Assembly: GCA_964439765.1 (NCBI GenBank)
Contig: CAYTOG010000003.1
Span: 1 to 46,184 of the forward strand
Direction: 5' to 3'
From: an uncultured Methanosarcinales archaeon
GTDB lineage: Archaea > Nanobdellota > Nanobdellia > Woesearchaeales > GW2011-AR9
DNA: 46,184 nt
The position numbers and the translations under genes are program-made. Below, piece after piece: positions 6,115 through 11,244 of the stretch; position 1 is the stretch's first letter, and the number at the start of each line of letters is the position of its first letter. The notes beneath the pieces are model-generated. The model was given only the letters and a program-made list of their open reading frames with translations, was not told the origin of the DNA and searched no databases.

Positions 6115-6741
6115 ATGTATCAATACACAAAAAGTAAATCAATCAAGATTGGACCAATCAAAACAAGCAATGCAGAAATCCGTGATATTGGTAAAGCTTG
6201 GATTGCACTTTCATTTGCGTTCGCACTTTTGTTCTCTGGAATATATCTTTTAGGGGGAAGAAGTTTTAGTTATATCTTATCAACAAATTTCATGCTTATA
6301 TTTCTAGTGTCACTTGGAACAGCAGGACTTGGTTTCTTGCTCCATGAACTTGCACATAAGTTTGTAGCACAGCATTTTGGTTGTATGGCAGAATTCAGAG
6401 CATTTGATCAAATGATTGTTCTCGCTGTTGGGCTAGCTGCAGTAATTGGTTGGATCTTTGCAGCACCTGGTGCTGTTATGATCTCAGGGACTGTCACAAG
6501 AAAAGAAAATGGAATAATTAGTTTAGCGGGGCCTGCAATGAATTTTGCATTAGCAGCAATTTTTTGGTTTATTGCCCAGTCAATTCCTCTGTTTTCAGTA
6601 GGACATTTTGTGAATGCATGGCTTGGAATATTTAATCTGATTCCATTTGGTAATCTCGACGGGAAGAAAATCTTAAGCTGGAGTAAAGCTTGGTGGGTAG
6701 GTTCAGTAGCCCTCGGAATTTATTTATTGTTCTTTTTGTAA
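6115..6741 (+). CDS. Site-2 protease (peptidase M50 family) membrane metalloprotease
   Basis: HELAH zinc motif, AGPAMN, NLIPFGNLDG (NxxPxxxxDG) and several TM helices. Confidence 0.93.
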   Translation: MYQYTKSKSIKIGPIKTSNAEIRDIGKAWIALSFAFALLFSGIYLLGGRSFSYILSTNFMLIFLVSLGTAGLGFLLHELAHKFVAQHFGCMAEFRAFDQMIVLAVGLAAVIGWIFAAPGAVMISGTVTRKENGIISLAGPAMNFALAAIFWFIAQSIPLFSVGHFVNAWLGIFNLIPFGNLDGKKILSWSKAWWVGSVALGIYLLFFL

Positions 6742-6862
6742 TTTTTAGTGGGGCTGAAGCAAAGCGTAATGCCACACATTGCGTATCAAATGCGCGTAAC
6801 CATTTGGCTTGGTGGGTTGGAAGCGTAGTACTTGGAATTTATTTGTTGTTCTTTTTGTAATT
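6688..6862 (+). repeat. Hairpin cassette copy A flanked by a 56-bp imperfect direct repeat of the M50 gene 3' end (6688-6743 vs 6807-6862)
   Basis: 47/56 identity between the repeats. The insert holds the stem GTGGGGC..GAAGCAAAGCGTAA..GCCACAC and the 32-bp core ACATTGCGTATCAAATGCGCGTAACCATTTGG (6776-6807). Confidence 0.9.
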
Positions 6863-6885
6863 GTCTTCTATCGACATCTTTATAA

Positions 6886-7113
6886 GTGATTATTACTAAA
6901 ACAACTATTATGGCACTCACAAAAACAGATAAGGAATTATTACATATAATCGTACAAAAAGAATTATCTCAAATGCAATCTGACGCAAAAAAACTAATGA
7001 TTGTTAATGCAAATTACATCACAACAACAAAAGGTAATGGTGATTTAGAATTCTTAAAAACTGAAGAAAAGTATGAAGAAGCACTTAGAAAGTTACTTAA
7101 GAAACTTAAATAA
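6886..7113 (+). CDS. Small hypothetical helical protein (start may be ATG 6909)
   Basis: Open ORF with charged amphipathic composition and TTTATAA upstream. Confidence 0.65.
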   Translation: MIITKTTIMALTKTDKELLHIIVQKELSQMQSDAKKLMIVNANYITTTKGNGDLEFLKTEEKYEEALRKLLKKLK

Positions 7114-7257
7114 AATAATCTTTGATATATCTAATAATATTCAATAAAAGATAACAAGATTATGTGAAATCAACAACCCGAAATCCTTGTCAAAATGGCG
7201 AAATAAAGCCAAATTCTCCGTTTTTAATAGAAAACTATATATACTTCAATTATATTC

Positions 7258-7362
7258 GTTACTGGCACAAGGCAATTAATGCCATGTAACCAAGAGGTGA
7301 TGGGTTCTATTTAGAGGTGAATAGTTCTGTAACATTATTTCTTTGGAAAAGAGGTGGTTCAA
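7258..7362 (+). promoter_or_regulatory. Putative structured 5' leader with repeated AGAGGT motifs
   Basis: TATA-like CTATATATA at ~7235. Hairpin GTTACTGGCA..TGCCATGTAAC. Hairpin CTATTT-AGAGGT-GAATAG. GAGGTG occurs at 7294, 7314 and 7351. Confidence 0.45.
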
Positions 7363-7488
7363 GTGAAACAGTATGTGTTTCAAGAGGTAAAGAAGTTCAA
7401 AATACAGCGATGCTGTAAGAGTTGTAATACAAGGATGGTTGTGGAAAACGCAAACCGCTATTATTGCAAGGGATGTCGGGGCTATTAG
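7363..7488 (+). CDS. Unannotated 41-aa zinc-ribbon microprotein MKQYVFQEVKKFKIQRCCKSCNTRMVVENANRYYCKGCRGY
   Basis: GTG start 6 nt after SD GAGGTG. CKSC-x13-CKGC. The stop lies within the hairpin GGGCTATTAGCCC, which is followed by a T7 tract. Confidence 0.78.
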   Translation: MKQYVFQEVKKFKIQRCCKSCNTRMVVENANRYYCKGCRGY

Positions 7489-7590
7489 CCCTTTTTTTCT
7501 TCTTATGAGGTTGAGCAAAGCGAATACCTCATGCACTATCAAATGCTGCTGCATTTGGTCGTGGGCTTTTTAGCCCTTTCTTTTTTCTTT
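7475..7590 (+). repeat. Hairpin cassette copy B flanked by an imperfect duplicate of the microprotein end/terminator
   Basis: Stem ATGAGGT-TGAGCAAAGCGAAT-ACCTCAT, then TATCAAATGC-TGCT-GCATTTGG. GTCGGGGCTATTAGCCCTTT recurs as GTCGTGGGCTTTTTAGCCCTTT from 7558. Confidence 0.8.
7479..7498 (+). terminator. GC hairpin plus T-tract terminator
   Basis: GGGCTA-T-TAGCCC followed by TTTTTTT at the microprotein stop. Confidence 0.6.
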
Positions 7591-7862
7591 ATTGTAATTA
7601 AAATATATCTATAGCGCAAATAATTCTACTTGTTCATCAAATATTTCTATCAAAACTAAGACCTCAAGTACCCTATTAAACAGTGCAAAAGAATGCTTAT
7701 ATATCAGTTTGTTTCTGAAAATGCAAACATTCAGCAGGATATAATTCACTTAATTTTTGGGTTTTTTTGTTGTAGTTTTCCCGAACAAATATATTGCACA
7801 ACGACAAGATATTTAAAGTGAGTATTCTGATAAAAACTTAATTCAGATCAATTTCAAAAGGG

Positions 7863-10562
7863 GTGGAATACATGATCACAAATGTACAAAAAGCAGATGG
7901 AACAATAGTTGAGTTTGATAAAGATTACACAATTTCTTCTCTATCACATATTTTACAAGAAAAAGCTGAGATGTCAGAGTCAGAATCAGTTGAAATTGCA
8001 ACAAATATTATTCAATTAATTAATAATCGTAATATTGATACTCCATCAACATCTGATTTTGAACAGTTAGTAAATCTAGTTGTAACCACAACAAAATTAA
8101 CAAATAATACTAAAGAAAAATCTCAAGAAGAAGAAAAAGAAGATTCTAGTGAGCCAGAAGTACCAGAAGTTCCCGAAGTAAGTTCAATTCTTGAGGAAGA
8201 TTCGGATGAAGAAGTAAGTGAAGAACACAAAGAGAATACAGTTACAGAATCCGAAGATAATGCTGAAGAACTCCAAAAAGATCTTATGCACTTAAATGAG
8301 AAAGAAGTATTTGTGAGTGAACAAGGAAGAAGAATTCTTGCAGAGTCAACAGTATTCGACGAATTAGGAAGATCAATATTTCTAGATCGTTATTCTTTAA
8401 AGTGTAAACGTGAAGAGATTGAAGTTGGGGATTTAGTAGTTGCTATTAGCAAAGAAGATCCAAAATTTCCTAAAAAAGATTTAGGAGTTGTTACAAAAAT
8501 GGATGGTGATGATATCACGCTCCATATGGTAACTGGGATGTTTGCAGACGAAGAAAATAATTTTGAATTTAAAACATCCATTTGGAAATGTGATAAACCA
8601 ATTGAATCAATTCAAGATGCTCACAAAAGGATTGCAAAAGCTGCAGCAAGCATGGAACAAACAGATGAGCTCAAACAATCTTGGGAAGATAAATTTTATG
8701 ATGAGTTAAGTAAAAAGCATATTCAACCAGCAGGAAGAATAATGACTGCAGCGAATGTGGGTAGTGGCTACACCAAAAATTTAACTTTGTACAATTGTTA
8801 TGTCTTGCCTAGTCCACAAGATAGTAGGGAGGGAATTGTCAAAGAAACATTGTATCAAATGACTGAAGTTTTCTCAAGGGGAGGGGGAGTTGGAATTAAT
8901 CTTTCTACATTAAGACCACGTTATTCATATGTTCAAGGAGTTCATGGTAAATCTTCCGGAGCAGTTTCTTGGGGAGGAATATTCTCATATGGAACTGGTT
9001 TAATTGAGCAAGGAGGTTCAAGAAGGGGAGCTTTAATGCTTATGCTTCATGATTGGCATCCAGATATTTTAGAATTTATTACAGCAAAAAGAAAGAAAGG
9101 TGTGTTAGAAAATGCAAACATTTCTGTTTTGGTTTCTGACAGATTCATGGATGCTTTGTCAAAGGGCGAAGATTGGAATTTAGAGTTCCCTGACCATGGG
9201 GCTGAAGGCATGAAAGAAATTTATAATGCAGAATGGGATGGAAACATTGACGCTTGGAAGGCAAAAGGATATCCCGTTCGAGTTTATAAAACGGTAAAAG
9301 CTGCCGAGATGTGGGATTCACTTATTTCTTCTGCCCATGCAAGTGCTGAACCAGGAATTGTTTTCATGGAGAGGTATAACAAGTTAAGTAACTCTAATTA
9401 TTATAACTCTTTAATTTGTACGAACCCTTGTGGTGAACAAGGTCTTCCAGCGTGGGGTGTATGTAATTTAGGACATCTTTATCTAGCAGAATTTGCAAAC
9501 AAAGTAGGTAGTGATGAAGTTGGCCCAGTGTATGAAATTGATTGGGAGGCACTTAAAAAAGCTGCAACAACATTGGTGCGTTTCCTTGATAACATAATTG
9601 ATTTGACTCCTTATCACTTTAAAGAAAATGAAGTTAACCAAAAAAGTGAAAGAAGAGTTGGTGCAGGGACATTGGGTCTTGGAGAATTATTAATTAAGTT
9701 GAGAGTAAGATATGGGAGTCCAGAATCTTTAGAGGTAATTGATAAAATTTACAAAACAATTTGTGAGAGCATTTACCTTTGTTCAGTTGAACTTGCAAAA
9801 GAAAAAGGTATGTTCACATATTGTGATCCTGAAAAAATTTCAAATAGTGGATTTATCAAAACTCTTTCTGAAGAGCTTCAAGGTCAAATTAGAGAACATG
9901 GGCTAAGAAATGTGAGTTTAACAACTCAGGCTCCAACTGGAACAGTTGGAACTATGCTTTCAACTTCAACTGGAATCGAACCGTATTATGCGTTTGAATT
10001 TTTCCAACAATCAAGGCTTGGTTTTCATAAAGTAGTAATTCCACTTGCAAAAGAATACCAAAAAGAAGATGGTTCATTCCCAGATTGGATGGTAACTGCA
10101 ATGCAGATGAGTCCTCTTGACCATATTAGGGTGCAAGCAGGAGTACAACGTTGGACAGATTCTTCTATTTCTAAAACCGCAAATGCTCCAGAAAACTTCA
10201 GTGTTGAACAAACAAAACAACTTTATGAAGAAGCATACAGGCTTGGGTGTAAGGGAGTCACAATTTATCGTGATAATTGCAGATATGAGCAAGTGCTTAC
10301 AACTGATGCAAAGAAGGAAGAAGAAAATGCAAATAGTGGAGATTGGGAAGCAAGCAATGAAACTGAAGTAGAAAATGCTGAAACAACAGTTTCTGAGGAA
10401 ACATCCAAAACAAATACAACTACTTCAGAACAAGTGGCTACTATGGCTATGCAAGCAGAAGAAATTGCTGGAGAAACTCCAAAAACAGAAGAAGATGATT
10501 CTCAAAAGTGCGAACTTCGTTTTGATGAGAATGGTCAGATGTATAAGAGCTGTAGCGATTAA
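7863..10562 (+). CDS. nrdJ: Adenosylcobalamin-dependent (class II) ribonucleotide reductase with a degenerate N-terminal ATP cone
   Basis: NCYV, GGGVG, RRGALM, TNPCGEQ, CNLG, APTGT and KGVTIYRD motifs, with a C-terminal Cys pair. No NrdB radical subunit is nearby. Confidence 0.9.
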   Translation: MEYMITNVQKADGTIVEFDKDYTISSLSHILQEKAEMSESESVEIATNIIQLINNRNIDTPSTSDFEQLVNLVVTTTKLTNNTKEKSQEEEKEDSSEPEVPEVPEVSSILEEDSDEEVSEEHKENTVTESEDNAEELQKDLMHLNEKEVFVSEQGRRILAESTVFDELGRSIFLDRYSLKCKREEIEVGDLVVAISKEDPKFPKKDLGVVTKMDGDDITLHMVTGMFADEENNFEFKTSIWKCDKPIESIQDAHKRIAKAAASMEQTDELKQSWEDKFYDELSKKHIQPAGRIMTAANVGSGYTKNLTLYNCYVLPSPQDSREGIVKETLYQMTEVFSRGGGVGINLSTLRPRYSYVQGVHGKSSGAVSWGGIFSYGTGLIEQGGSRRGALMLMLHDWHPDILEFITAKRKKGVLENANISVLVSDRFMDALSKGEDWNLEFPDHGAEGMKEIYNAEWDGNIDAWKAKGYPVRVYKTVKAAEMWDSLISSAHASAEPGIVFMERYNKLSNSNYYNSLICTNPCGEQGLPAWGVCNLGHLYLAEFANKVGSDEVGPVYEIDWEALKKAATTLVRFLDNIIDLTPYHFKENEVNQKSERRVGAGTLGLGELLIKLRVRYGSPESLEVIDKIYKTICESIYLCSVELAKEKGMFTYCDPEKISNSGFIKTLSEELQGQIREHGLRNVSLTTQAPTGTVGTMLSTSTGIEPYYAFEFFQQSRLGFHKVVIPLAKEYQKEDGSFPDWMVTAMQMSPLDHIRVQAGVQRWTDSSISKTANAPENFSVEQTKQLYEEAYRLGCKGVTIYRDNCRYEQVLTTDAKKEEENANSGDWEASNETEVENAETTVSEETSKTNTTTSEQVATMAMQAEEIAGETPKTEEDDSQKCELRFDENGQMYKSCSD

Positions 10563-10667
10563 AATTATTCTGTAAAAAATTTTTTCTTTTTCTTTTAAGT
10601 ATATTTTTCTAAAATTTTTAAAATAATGAACAGTAGCTTTATATTTAAGAACAAATCTGAGAAGAGT

Positions 10668-11006
10668 ATGAAAGTAAATTGTTCTGAGCAAACGAGCAAA
10701 TCCTATCGCATTTCTTTGAATAGTGAGGAAGGAGAAGAGATTGGCCATGTGTATCTTTATTTAATAAAAAATGATTTACACAAAGAACCATATGGATTTC
10801 TTGAAGATGTGTTCATAGAAGAGAAATATCGTAGTCAAGGTTATGGGAAGAAAATTATGCAAGAAGTAATTCAGAAAGCCAAAGATACTGGTTGCTATAA
10901 GTTACTTGGAACGAGTAGAAGTAGTAGGGAGAAAGTACATGATTTTTACATTAATCTTGGATTTGTCCAGTGGGGCAAAGAATTTCGTATGAATTTCAAA
11001 GAATAA
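10668..11006 (+). CDS. GNAT family N-acetyltransferase
   Basis: LEDVFIEEKYRSQGYGKKIM acetyl-CoA motif and FYINLGF. ATG 10668 is preferred over 10626. Confidence 0.9.
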   Translation: MKVNCSEQTSKSYRISLNSEEGEEIGHVYLYLIKNDLHKEPYGFLEDVFIEEKYRSQGYGKKIMQEVIQKAKDTGCYKLLGTSRSSREKVHDFYINLGFVQWGKEFRMNFKE

Positions 11007-11065
11007 TCTCCAAAAGTAGCACCAAAATACTTATAAACAGATTCTTAGTATCATTTTCTTTATAC

Positions 11066-11139
11066 GGGATCGTAGCTCAATCTGGGAGAGCACTAGACTG
11101 AAGATCTAGGTGTTGAGGGTTCAAATCCCTCCGATCCCA
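11066..11139 (+). tRNA. tRNA-Phe (anticodon GAA), no intron, CCA not encoded
   Basis: Acceptor GGGATCG/CGATCCC, D arm GCTC/GAGC, anticodon arm CTAGA-CT GAA GA-TCTAG, T arm GAGGG-TTCAAAT-CCCTC. Confidence 0.96.
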
Positions 11140-11244
11140 CTTTTTTCTTATTTGGGTAAGTGAACATTAGTGAGCGCATCCCAACATTGCGTATCAAATG
11201 CGCGTAACCATTTGGTGATAGATCCCTCCGATCCCACTTTTTTC
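11125..11244 (+). repeat. Hairpin cassette copy C flanked by a perfect 23-bp direct repeat of the tRNA-Phe 3' end (11125-11147 = 11222-11244)
   Basis: ATCCCTCCGATCCCACTTTTTTC occurs twice. The insert has the stem TTGGG..GTGAACATTAGTGAGC..CCCAA and a 32-bp core at 11184-11215 identical to 6776-6807. Confidence 0.92.

What the first reader, a model, noticed from the sequence alone, without database searches (positions are those of the whole stretch)
6688..11244. Family of double-hairpin cassettes, each followed by a duplicate of the upstream gene's 3' end: candidate undescribed 'gene-tail replacement' mobile system
Seen: three + strand cassettes (6744-6807, ~7501-7558, 11148-11221) share one architecture: gene end and T-tract, then hairpin 1, then hairpin 2, then a second copy of the gene end. 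Hairpin 1 has variable stems with a GA(G/A)C-loop-G(C/T)GA-like inner motif (GAAGCAAAGCGTAA, GAGCAAAGCGAA, GTGAACATTAGTGAGC). Hairpin 2 is TATCAAATG-N6-8-CATTTGG. Copies A and C share 32 identical bp. The targets are unrelated (a protease CDS, a microprotein terminator, a tRNA), duplication lengths differ (56, ~22-30, 23 bp), and the duplicate starts at or within 7 nt of CATTTGG. No transposase, integrase or RT gene is in the window. Inference: a non-autonomous, strand-specific element with a fixed right end at hairpin 2 and a homology-defined left end. It could move by HUH/RAYT-like ssDNA cleavage plus homologous recombination, or by reverse transcription of transcript 3' ends. Alternatively, copies A and C may bound a unit that carried in nrdJ.
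Basis: partly seen in the sequence, partly recalled or inferred. Interest (0 to 1): 0.92.

Follow-up and report, generated by a model that had tools for sequence, protein, structure and literature searches.

The report
Mobile hairpin element duplicating gene ends
A family of roughly 60-base double-hairpin DNA elements in a small marine archaeon sits just behind genes and tRNAs, each followed by a second, slightly different copy of the gene's end, and the same sequence module forms introns inside tRNA genes of related archaea, so it may show how such introns spread.

Summary
The motif TATCAAATG-N6-8-CATTTGG occurs 3 times in the window (0 expected). The whole genome holds 13 copies of the element ("E"), and 9 of the 13 lie between two direct copies (18-56 nt) of the left-hand flank. 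Orthologous sites in sister species are empty, so E is an insertion. In 5 protein-coding cases the two flank copies differ by 33 bases but only 7 amino acids, and all keep the stop codon (random expectation 22). Both copies therefore evolved as coding sequence, and one comes from a related genome. The same 27-nt module, in the opposite orientation, lies inside bulge-helix-bulge introns in tRNA T-loops of relatives and in many metagenome contigs. No Rfam family matched and I found no paper describing it. Y1 HUH, TnpB and IS110 genes were not found in the genomes searched. RT was found in 1 of 5 and tyrosine recombinases in 5 of 5. My best reading (about 0.5): a non-autonomous, strand-asymmetric mobile element that travels with a piece of its flank and enters related genomes by homology-dependent recombination. 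The enzyme is unknown. The idea that copies A and C carried in the reductase gene is rejected.

The parts
6115..6741 (+). Peptidase_M50 gene. Its last 18 codons are the left flank copy (S1) of cassette A.
   Evidence: Pfam match 1.8e-08, above the cut-off. ORF list.
6688..6743 (+). S1 of cassette A: gene tail, stop codon and 2 further bases.
   Evidence: Local alignment with 6808-6862 scores 65 against a shuffle maximum of 29. It translates to AWWVGSVALGIYLLFFL*.
6744..6807 (+). Element E, copy A. Hairpin 1 (about 6748-6777) has an inner GA..GA motif. The hairpin 2 module is 6777-6807.
   Evidence: nhmmer E-value 1e-16.
6808..6862 (+). S2 of cassette A: second copy of the gene tail. It differs at 9 bases but at only 1 amino acid, and keeps the stop codon.
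   Evidence: Orthologous genes in G001-G004 have a single tail and no E.
7354..7488 (+). 44-codon ORF with no Pfam match. Its stop codon lies in the loop of a terminator-like hairpin that belongs to S1 of cassette B.
   Evidence: The region is conserved at 72-76% in G004 and G002.
7475..7504 (+). S1 of cassette B: hairpin plus T-tract.
7505..7558 (+). Element E, copy B. It has a short hairpin 1 with the inner motif GAGC-AAA-GCGA, and a hairpin 2 with a 6-nt loop.
   Evidence: z = -2.99; 0 of 200 shuffles fold as well. nhmmer 4.6e-08.
7559..7589 (+). S2 of cassette B: diverged copy of hairpin plus T-tract, with one gap.
   Evidence: score 30 against a shuffle maximum of 23. G004 lacks E and S2 here.
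11066..11140 (+). tRNA-Phe(GAA). Its last 16 bases plus the T-tract form S1 of cassette C.
   Evidence: Rfam 71.6 bits. ARAGORN.
11125..11147 (+). S1 of cassette C. It starts in the T-loop.
   Evidence: 23 of 23 bases identical to 11222-11244.
11150..11215 (+). Element E, copy C. It has a type II hairpin 1 and the same 32-nt hairpin 2 module as copy A.
   Evidence: nhmmer 5.4e-16.
11216..11221 (+). 6-nt filler TGATAG between E and S2. It extends hairpin 2 with G.U pairs and resembles the 3' end (TGAAAG) of the related T-loop introns.
11222..11244 (+). S2 of cassette C: partial tRNA-Phe 3' end plus T-tract.
   Evidence: tRNA-Phe loci in G004 and G001 are empty.

Best explanation
E is a small (about 54-70 nt) non-autonomous mobile DNA element of a marine DPANN-like archaeon (the lineage assignment is inferred). 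One strand carries two conserved structures. The first is a hairpin with a tandem G.A motif. The second is a hairpin or pseudoknot module, TATCAAATG-loop-CATTTGG.

A fresh insertion has the form S1-E-S2. S is 18-56 nt of the DNA to the left of E, usually the end of a conserved gene or tRNA together with its T-tract.

Inferred mechanism: E travels together with a variable piece of its left flank. It enters a related genome by recombination that uses that flank as homology. The incoming flank copy then becomes the working gene end (S1), and the resident end is displaced to the right of E (S2), as with the attL/attR repeats of integrative elements. Repeated entry gives tandem S-E-S-E-S arrays, and S2 then decays.

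The same module, inserted in the other orientation into a tRNA T-loop, makes a bulge-helix-bulge motif and persists there as an intron.

Shown: the family, the insertions, the duplications, selection on both copies, the strand asymmetry and the intron link.

Inferred: the direction of transfer, the intermediate (a circle or a linear piece) and the enzyme, which is either host recombination functions or a trans-acting recombinase.
For: Family and chance:
- 3 motif matches in the window against 0 expected.
- 13 copies in G000.
- Strict motif in 4 of 41 relatives' genomes (G000 included), with 0 matches for the reversed control pattern.
- BLAST matches to copy A in 28 of 401 genomes of the order (G000 included), patchily spread.

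Insertion:
- Site A is empty in G001-G004.
- Site C is empty in G004 and G001.
- Site B is empty in G004.
- The same tRNA-Leu carries different E subtypes, with different duplication starts, in G000, G002 and G004.

Duplication:
- 9 of 13 G000 copies score above all 200 shuffles.
- The 4 copies without a duplication have diverged hairpin 2 stems or a nested insertion, so they look older.
- The same architecture appears in L003, L005 and L007, and in 15 of 68 usable metagenome instances that passed the duplication threshold.

Tandem arrays: C13 has tRNA-S1-E1-S2-E2-S3, and L205 is tandem too.

Selection on both copies:
- 5 coding pairs show 33 base differences but only 7 amino-acid differences, and all keep the stop codon.
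- Random substitution gives 22.3 +/- 2.2 amino-acid differences, and 0 of 20,000 trials gave 7 or fewer.
- All five S1 copies end long ORFs.

Structure:
- The outer stem of hairpin 1 covaries.
- Hairpin 2 stem variants are compensatory: CAAATT/AATTTG, GAAATT/AATTTC and CAAAG/CTTTG.
- The E strand folds better than its complement in 31 of 33 copies.

Intron link:
- The exact 27-nt module lies antisense in tRNA T-loops in G004, G034 and about half of the metagenome instances.
- The central helix covaries. Among 30 introns there are 18 UUCA:UGAA, 8 UUCG:CGAA, 3 UUCG:UGAA, 1 mismatch and 0 UUCA:CGAA.
Against: - No enzyme was identified. Y1 HUH was found in 0 of 4 genus genomes, the TnpB TNB domain in 0 of 5, IS110 in 0 of 5 and RT in 1 of 5. 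Tyrosine recombinases are in 5 of 5 but are not linked to E.
- No extrachromosomal or flank-carrying intermediate was seen.
- No empty allele of the same species was available, so which copy is foreign is not shown. A test by downstream orthology was not significant.
- The foreign-origin argument rests on 5 coding pairs, and only 3 of them have many differences.
- In tRNA cases S1 and S2 are nearly identical. In one orthologous pair of metagenome loci (L226, L245) S2 tracks lineage-specific changes of S1. This fits gene conversion or a function for S2 as well as re-entry.
- A simple staggered-cut duplication followed by ordinary recombination between species would give the same picture.
- The cross-pair control for duplication calls in the metagenome set was confounded by shared tRNA sequence: 12 of 333 control pairs passed.
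- The folding asymmetry comes from related sequences, so the copies are not independent.
Confidence: 0.5

Rival explanations
1. Miniature integrative elements. E plus its flank copy is a cargo-less attP-bearing element, like a cis-mobilisable element. A tyrosine integrase encoded elsewhere in the genome, or on a virus or plasmid, integrates and excises it. S1 and S2 are then attL and attR.
For: Direct repeats of tRNA and protein-gene 3' ends, with an element-borne replacement tail, are what integrase-driven integration leaves. In Thaumarchaeota 39 of 68 integrated elements sit in tRNA genes and 14 in 3'-distal parts of protein genes (passages of PMC6563490). Tyrosine recombinases are present in 5 of 5 genomes. 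T-loops are frequent duplication starts. A published model derives tRNA intron gain from integration of such elements (PMC3293823, Discussion).
Against: Nearly identical E copies sit at 9 or more unrelated targets in one genome, which one site-specific integrase should not do. The hairpin 2 loop is 6, 8 or 9 nt long and its stem covaries. That fits a folded single strand and not a double-stranded core site with a fixed spacer. No distant partner repeat or cargo was found for copies without a duplication. The strict module has 0 matches in viral contigs. No integrase lies next to any copy.
Confidence: 0.2
2. Retroposition. An excised, possibly circular, intron-like E RNA is reverse transcribed at a nick in a T-rich site (target-primed). 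This gives target duplications of variable length, as for SINEs. Differences between S1 and S2 arise later by recombination between lineages.
For: The duplications vary in length (18-56 nt). The left junction lies in or just after T-tracts. E shares its module with spliced introns, and such introns are known to become circular RNAs in archaea (passages of PMC12558985).
Against: No RT was found in G000, G004, G001 or G034. The better-folding strand is the complement of the intron RNA. The synonymous pattern needs an extra step. E has no A-tail.
Confidence: 0.1
3. HUH-type single-strand transposition (IS200/IS605-derived or REP/RAYT-like element), with flank capture through a missed left end.
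For: The hairpins are strand-specific, and the right end is fixed at the foot of hairpin 2. The conserved 9-nt sequence TATCAAATG can sit in the loop of the alternative hairpin, as nick sites of rolling-circle origins do (the comparison is recalled).
Against: Y1_Tnp was found in 0 of 4 genomes of the genus, and only as a 29-bit partial match in G034. No TnpB was found. Elements of that family make no target duplication (recalled). No conserved target tetranucleotide is visible at the junctions.
Confidence: 0.1
4. Not mobile in itself. E is a structured RNA gene or a 3'-end or processing signal. Both flank copies are used, for example through bulge-helix-bulge splicing that swaps S1 for S2, which would keep both under selection.
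For: Both coding copies are under purifying selection. The fillers after hairpin 2 (TGATAG, TGAGG, TGA) resemble the 3' end of the related introns. In L226 and L245, S2 follows S1. Small RNAs placed directly behind tRNA genes and inside introns are known in Nanoarchaeum (PMC3491384, section 10).
Against: Sister species have empty sites. One tRNA carries different subtypes in different species. I could not draw a convincing bulge-helix-bulge for the coding cases by eye. S2 of C35 and of cassette B carry indels. No Rfam family matched.
Confidence: 0.07
5. Assembly artefact at a short repeat.
For: Public contigs of the probable source run break at the shared module, and none bridges it.
Against: Each S2 matches its own S1. 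The same architecture is found in other genomes and in dozens of independent metagenome contigs.
Confidence: 0.01

Closest known systems
Integrative elements that target the 3' ends of tRNA and protein genes (tyrosine-recombinase attL/attR repeats; cargo-less cis-mobilisable derivatives)
   Same: There is a direct repeat of the gene end on both sides. The copy joined to the gene differs from the displaced copy at synonymous sites. tRNA T-loops are frequent crossover points. Tandem arrays occur at one site (PMC6563490 passages).
   Different: The insert is only about 60 nt and has no integrase or cargo. One element family sits at many unrelated targets. The conserved part is a single-strand fold with a variable loop, not a fixed core site.
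Archaeal bulge-helix-bulge tRNA introns and their unexplained 'transposition' (Fujishima 2010 is known to me only as cited in PMC4090602; the 2026 Asgard preprint from its abstract)
   Same: The identical 27-nt module and the hairpin 1 motif occur inside T-loop introns whose central helix covaries. Similar intron sequences in different tRNAs are the published sign of intron mobility.
   Different: The window's copies lie outside genes, in the opposite orientation relative to the neighbouring gene, and are flanked by duplications. None of the papers I read (passages, named sections or abstracts only) describes free-standing copies or flank duplications.
IS200/IS605-derived palindrome elements and REP/RAYT
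   Same: They are small, strand-specific hairpin repeats in intergenic DNA, often behind genes.
   Different: No Y1 HUH gene was found. E has long flank duplications. No conserved target tetranucleotide is visible.
Mobile C/D box sRNA genes of Nanoarchaeum equitans (PMC3491384, section 10)
   Same: They are small structured units of a DPANN archaeon that lie directly behind tRNA genes, at gene borders and in tRNA introns. Their mobility is suspected and its mechanism unknown.
   Different: I saw no C or D boxes by eye, and no Rfam C/D family matched. Flank duplications are not reported there.
SINE-like target-primed retroposition
   Same: Target duplications vary in length, and insertion is at T-rich sites.
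   Different: 4 of 5 genomes have no RT. E has no A-tail. The folded strand is the wrong one for the intron RNA.

Membership tests
IS200/IS605-derived element or REP (HUH) | Cognate Y1 HUH transposase in the genome | tested here: not met
   PF01797 was found in 0 of 4 genomes of the genus. G034 has a 29-bit partial match. The genomes are 84-97% complete.
IS200/IS605-derived element or REP (HUH) | No target duplication; insertion 3' of a fixed tetra- or pentanucleotide | tested here: not met
   9 of 13 copies have 18-56-nt duplications. The bases before the duplication start show no common motif (read by eye).
IS200/IS605-derived element or REP (HUH) | Strand-specific subterminal hairpins | tested here: met
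   Folds. The E strand is more stable in 31 of 33 copies.
Classical MITE | Terminal inverted repeats and a short target duplication of fixed length | tested here: not met
   Only the 6-7-bp CAAATG/CATTTG pair is present, and in the short form it is internal. Duplication length varies from 18 to 56 nt.
Tyrosine-recombinase integrative element | Direct repeats of the target gene end (attL/attR) with an element-borne replacement end | tested here: met
Tyrosine-recombinase integrative element | Integrase and cargo between the repeats | tested here: not met
   Only about 60 nt lie between the repeats. No distant partner repeat was found. Integrases lie on other contigs.
Tyrosine-recombinase integrative element | One element family, one target site | tested here: not met
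   9 different targets in G000.
Archaeal bulge-helix-bulge intron | Lies within a gene, with a 4-bp helix flanked by two 3-nt bulges at the exon-intron borders | tested here: met
   Met for the T-loop copies in G004, G034 and the metagenomes. The helix covaries: 26 Watson-Crick and 3 wobble of 30, with the layout read. Not met for the three window copies, which lie outside genes.
Archaeal bulge-helix-bulge intron | Removed from the RNA by the splicing endonuclease | not testable with these tools
   No RNA runs were found (one search lists DNA runs only).
Non-LTR/SINE-type retroposon | Reverse transcriptase available in the cell | tested here: not met
   PF00078 was found in 1 of 5 genomes, and not in G000.
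Any Rfam RNA family | Match to a curated covariance model | tested here: not met
   At the gathering threshold only the two tRNAs match. The E-value search of 6 loci gave no match on E.
TnpB or IS110 guide-RNA elements | Cognate TnpB or IS110 recombinase | tested here: not met
   PF07282 in 0 of 5 genomes. PF01548 in 0 of 5.

The most novel reading that the evidence does not exclude
E is the free-living DNA form of a mobile archaeal tRNA intron. It is a protein-less element that carries a piece of its last host gene as a homing address and moves between genomes using only host recombination (and perhaps splicing and ligation) machinery. It survives either as an S-E-S cassette behind genes or, in one orientation in a T-loop, as a spliceable intron. 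That would be the long-sought route by which bulge-helix-bulge introns arrive in new genes.
Probability: 0.2. Interest if true: 0.9.

Novelty: new variant of a known kind. Interest (0 to 1): 0.8.

Why it matters
How archaeal tRNA introns reach new genes is an open question. [quoted passage not shown] The abstract of a 2026 preprint says that how introns arrive remains open.

In this family one conserved module occurs both as a T-loop intron and as a young, clearly inserted element with diagnostic flank duplications. That gives a concrete system in which to test intron mobility.

It would also be a mobile element that is addressed by carried homology instead of a site-specific enzyme, in genomes of about 1 Mb that have almost no transposases.

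Practically, these cassettes leave partial tRNA and gene-tail copies that confuse annotation, and their T-loop introns hide tRNA genes from standard finders. ARAGORN found 29 tRNAs in G000 and none of the T-loop-interrupted ones in relatives.

Tried and rejected
Things tried that led nowhere, or were considered and rejected:
- Diversity-generating retroelement (template and variable repeat). Rejected because the differences between S1 and S2 are not adenine-specific and G000 has no RT.
- A and C as borders of an imported reductase cassette. Rejected because of the conserved gene order in G004.
- A larger element bounded by a distant S1. For 20 copies without a local duplication, the best distant match equalled the reversed-sequence control, except for one doubtful AT-rich case, L193.
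- Viral origin. The strict module has 0 matches in viral contigs.
Only 2 of the loci I screened (L115, titled Woesearchaeota, and L136) were true copies. That scan was in effect wasted.
- The amoA search, meant to place the organism, was uninformative because the control rang in no genome.
- Reads. Only Logan contigs were available. They break at the repeat and show neither bridging molecules nor empty alleles. X2 and X3 gave only fragments.
- Which copy is resident. The alignment of downstream flanks between G000, G002 and G004 was no better than shuffles.
- C/D or H/ACA sRNA. No boxes seen by eye and no Rfam match.
- Splicing that swaps S1 for S2 in mRNAs. I could not draw a convincing bulge-helix-bulge by eye, and I did not test it formally.
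- The RNAalifold consensus recovered only the invariant hairpin 2 stem, with no covariation term, because MAFFT misaligned hairpin 1. I did not build a covariance model.
- The cross-pair control was confounded, as stated above.
I did not request supplementary files, so supplementary tables of PMC6563490 and of the tRNA-intron papers may list such loci without my having seen them.
Full report
**What is in the window.**
- The region 6688-11244 holds three + strand copies of a short element, called E here: A at 6744-6807, B at 7505-7558 and C at 11150-11215.
- The hairpin 2 motif TATCAAATG-N6-8-CATTTGG matches three times, against 0.00 expected in 100 shuffles.
- Each copy follows a gene end. These are a Peptidase_M50 gene, the terminator hairpin of a 44-codon ORF with no Pfam match, and tRNA-Phe(GAA).
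- Each copy is followed by a second copy of that end. The duplicated lengths are 56, 30/32 (gapped) and 23 nt, and each scores above all 200 shuffles.
- A and C share 32 identical bases.
- The large gene between them is a ribonucleotide reductase large subunit.

**The family.**
- The assembly (1.15 Mb, 92 contigs, 34.6% G+C) has 6 strict-motif copies.
- With nhmmer and inspection there are 13 copies in all.
- Nine of the 13 have the S1-E-S2 layout.
- The four without it (C62a, C12, C2, C13b) have changed hairpin 2 stems or a second small element nested inside them, so they look older.
- One tRNA-Ser carries a tandem array S1-E1-S2-E2-S3.
- One copy (C62b) lies in plain intergenic DNA upstream of a reductase-like gene and still has a 28-nt duplication. 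The duplication is therefore a property of insertion, not of gene tails as such.
- The strict motif occurs in 4 of 41 relatives' genomes (G000 included), with 0 matches for the reversed control pattern.
- BLAST finds more diverged copies in all five genomes of the genus.
- The 69-nt copy A finds matches in 28 of 401 genomes of the order (G000 included), patchily: 7 of 7 in family f11 and 1 of 7 in the window's own family.

**It is an insertion.**
- The protease gene has one tail and no E in G001-G004.
- tRNA-Phe has no E in G004 and G001.
- Site B is empty in G004. In G002 it is occupied by a different E without a duplication.
- The same tRNA-Leu carries E in G000, G002 and G004, with different subtypes and in part different duplication starts.
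- The gene order from protease to reductase to tRNA-Phe is the same in G004 without E. Copies A and C therefore did not bring the reductase in.

**Both flank copies evolved as coding sequence.**
- I examined five cases where S1 is the end of a long ORF: A, C35, L005, L176 and L205 (ORFs of 58-411 codons).
- The pairs differ at 33 bases but at only 7 amino acids, and all five S2 copies keep the stop codon.
- The same number of random substitutions gives 22.3 +/- 2.2 amino-acid changes, and 0 of 20,000 trials reached 7 or fewer.
- A decaying duplicate would not look like this. The simplest reading is that one copy comes from the orthologue of a related genome.
- Only three of the five pairs carry many differences.
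- tRNA cases are nearly identical, as expected for slowly evolving genes.

**Structure.**
- Hairpin 1 has a variable, covarying outer stem around a conserved inner unit, GA-2 bp-loop-2 bp-GA.
- Hairpin 2 has an invariant 6-7-bp stem in the strict copies. The diverged copies carry compensatory variants: CAAATT/AATTTG, GAAATT/AATTTC and CAAAG/CTTTG.
- The bases just 5' of hairpin 2 pair with its loop: GCG/CGC, CGTG/CACG and GCA/TGC. This gives either a pseudoknot or two alternative hairpins (read by eye).
- The E strand folds better than its complement in 31 of 33 free-standing copies, by 3.1 kcal/mol on average. The copies are related, so this is a trend and not a test.
- No Rfam family matches.

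**The intron link.**
- An exact scan for the 27-nt module in metagenome contigs gave 92 stretches. 80 loci were fetched, with 83 instances, 73 of them unique and 68 usable.
- About half have the module in the opposite orientation inside a tRNA T-loop. 32 were flagged by pattern, one of which is really a duplication case. Several of the 22 'other' cases have an extra hairpin before the T-loop. The same layout is seen in G004 and G034.
- Read in the tRNA's sense, the insert lies between positions 59 and 60 and can form a bulge-helix-bulge. T-loop UUCA pairs with UGAA near the insert's 3' end, 3-nt bulges lie on either side, and a CAAAUG/CAUUUG helix lies beyond.
- The 4-bp helix covaries with the host T-loop. 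Among 30 introns there are 18 UUCA:UGAA, 8 UUCG:CGAA, 3 UUCG:UGAA, 1 mismatch and none UUCA:CGAA.
- Even there, the strand complementary to the tRNA folds better in 26 of 31 cases, the tRNA-sense strand in 3, with 2 ties. This suggests that the conserved fold serves the element, and that only one orientation survives in a T-loop because it can be spliced.
- 15 instances passed the duplication threshold. They include tRNA 3' ends, coding tails, and six cases where the duplicated piece is the 5' end of a tRNA on the other strand.
- One record with a true copy is titled Woesearchaeota. One metagenome contig carries an archaeal 16S fragment beside such tRNAs. The source run is labelled seawater metagenome. 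That this genome is a DPANN archaeon is my inference.

**Enzymes.**
- In G000, G001, G002, G004 and G034, Y1 HUH was found in none of the four genus genomes and weakly in G034.
- The TnpB TNB domain was found in 0 of 5, IS110 in 0 of 5 and RT in 1 of 5, namely G002.
- Tyrosine recombinases were found in 5 of 5, none beside an E copy and none on the window's contig.
- The genomes are 84-97% complete, so absence is not proven.

**Interpretation.**
- Best reading (about 0.5): E is a non-autonomous, strand-asymmetric mobile element that moves with a piece of its left flank and enters related genomes by homology-dependent recombination. This leaves the incoming flank copy on the gene and the resident copy behind E. 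It resembles attL/attR of integrative elements but has no integrase, no cargo and many targets.
- Rivals:
  - a trans-acting integrase acting on cargo-less integrative elements (0.2);
  - target-primed retroposition (0.1);
  - HUH transposition (0.1);
  - a structured RNA with both tails in use (0.07);
  - an assembly artefact (0.01).
- What I could not decide: which flank copy is foreign (one search was not significant), what the intermediate is, and whether the first duplication at a new site is a staggered-cut duplication.

**Literature.**
- Integration of elements into tRNA and protein-gene 3' ends in Thaumarchaeota: passages of PMC6563490.
- Intron transposition with unknown mechanism: passage of PMC4090602.
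- A model of intron gain through element integration: abstract and Discussion of PMC3293823.
- 'How they arrive remains open': abstract of preprint 10.64898/2026.10.13.758758.
- Direct repeats near intron borders: abstract of PMC11782384.
- Mobile C/D sRNA genes beside tRNAs in Nanoarchaeum: passages and section 10 of PMC3491384.
- Circular RNAs from bulge-helix-bulge processing: passages of PMC12558985.
- None of these, and none of the listings, describes this element. Only that library was searched, and I did not see supplements.
- Features of IS200/IS605, REP/RAYT, integrase sublocation in tRNA genes and SINE insertion are recalled, not taken from a call.

Noticed in passing
G000 contig C2:7454-7567 and C13:17037-17166 (outside the window); also an optional 48-nt insert in metagenome loci L171 and L197: A second small element of about 50 nt, with inverted ends of the type (T)ACTGAAAAT...ATTTTCA(T)G(TA), is nested inside the hairpin 2 of two old E copies at a TA. 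It looks like a separate MITE family that uses TA targets.
   Followed up: partly
Metagenome loci L171, L186, L190, L197, L227, L246 and genome-contig loci L115, L136: A composite repeat of about 300 nt in a Woesearchaeota-titled genome has E at one end, an inverted hairpin-1-like unit, and a short conserved ORF (MSHIRQLCCGGEWI...) on the other strand. At least 6 near-identical copies have unrelated flanks.
   Followed up: partly
G000 whole genome: ARAGORN finds only 29 tRNA genes, 16 of them with introns. Several isoacceptors (for example Val, Asp, Asn, Lys) are not found. They may be hidden by non-canonical introns or missing from the assembly.
   Followed up: no
G001 locus L169:1497-1662: An E copy abuts the 5' end of tRNA-Val(TAC), sharing the last GG of hairpin 2 with the tRNA's first bases. 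The orthologous tRNA-Val in G004 (L164) instead carries the module as a T-loop intron, in addition to a canonical intron.
   Followed up: partly
G000 contig C2:43006-44174: A 424-codon tyrosine-recombinase ORF lies next to tRNA-Gly(TCC). This looks like an ordinary integrated element, unrelated to E by position.
   Followed up: no
window 6690-6860: A 56-codon open frame runs through S1 (out of the gene's frame), through E, and into S2 in its coding frame. This is probably chance.
   Followed up: no
G002 contig C24:33728-34345 (L262): The only reverse transcriptase match among the five genomes is a 595-codon frame. An integrase match lies about 3 kb away on the same contig (C24:30129-30620).
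   Followed up: no
window 6779-6805 and 11187-11213: Public unitig-style contigs of the probable source run end exactly at the shared E module. These elements therefore fragment short-read assemblies of this lineage.
   Followed up: yes
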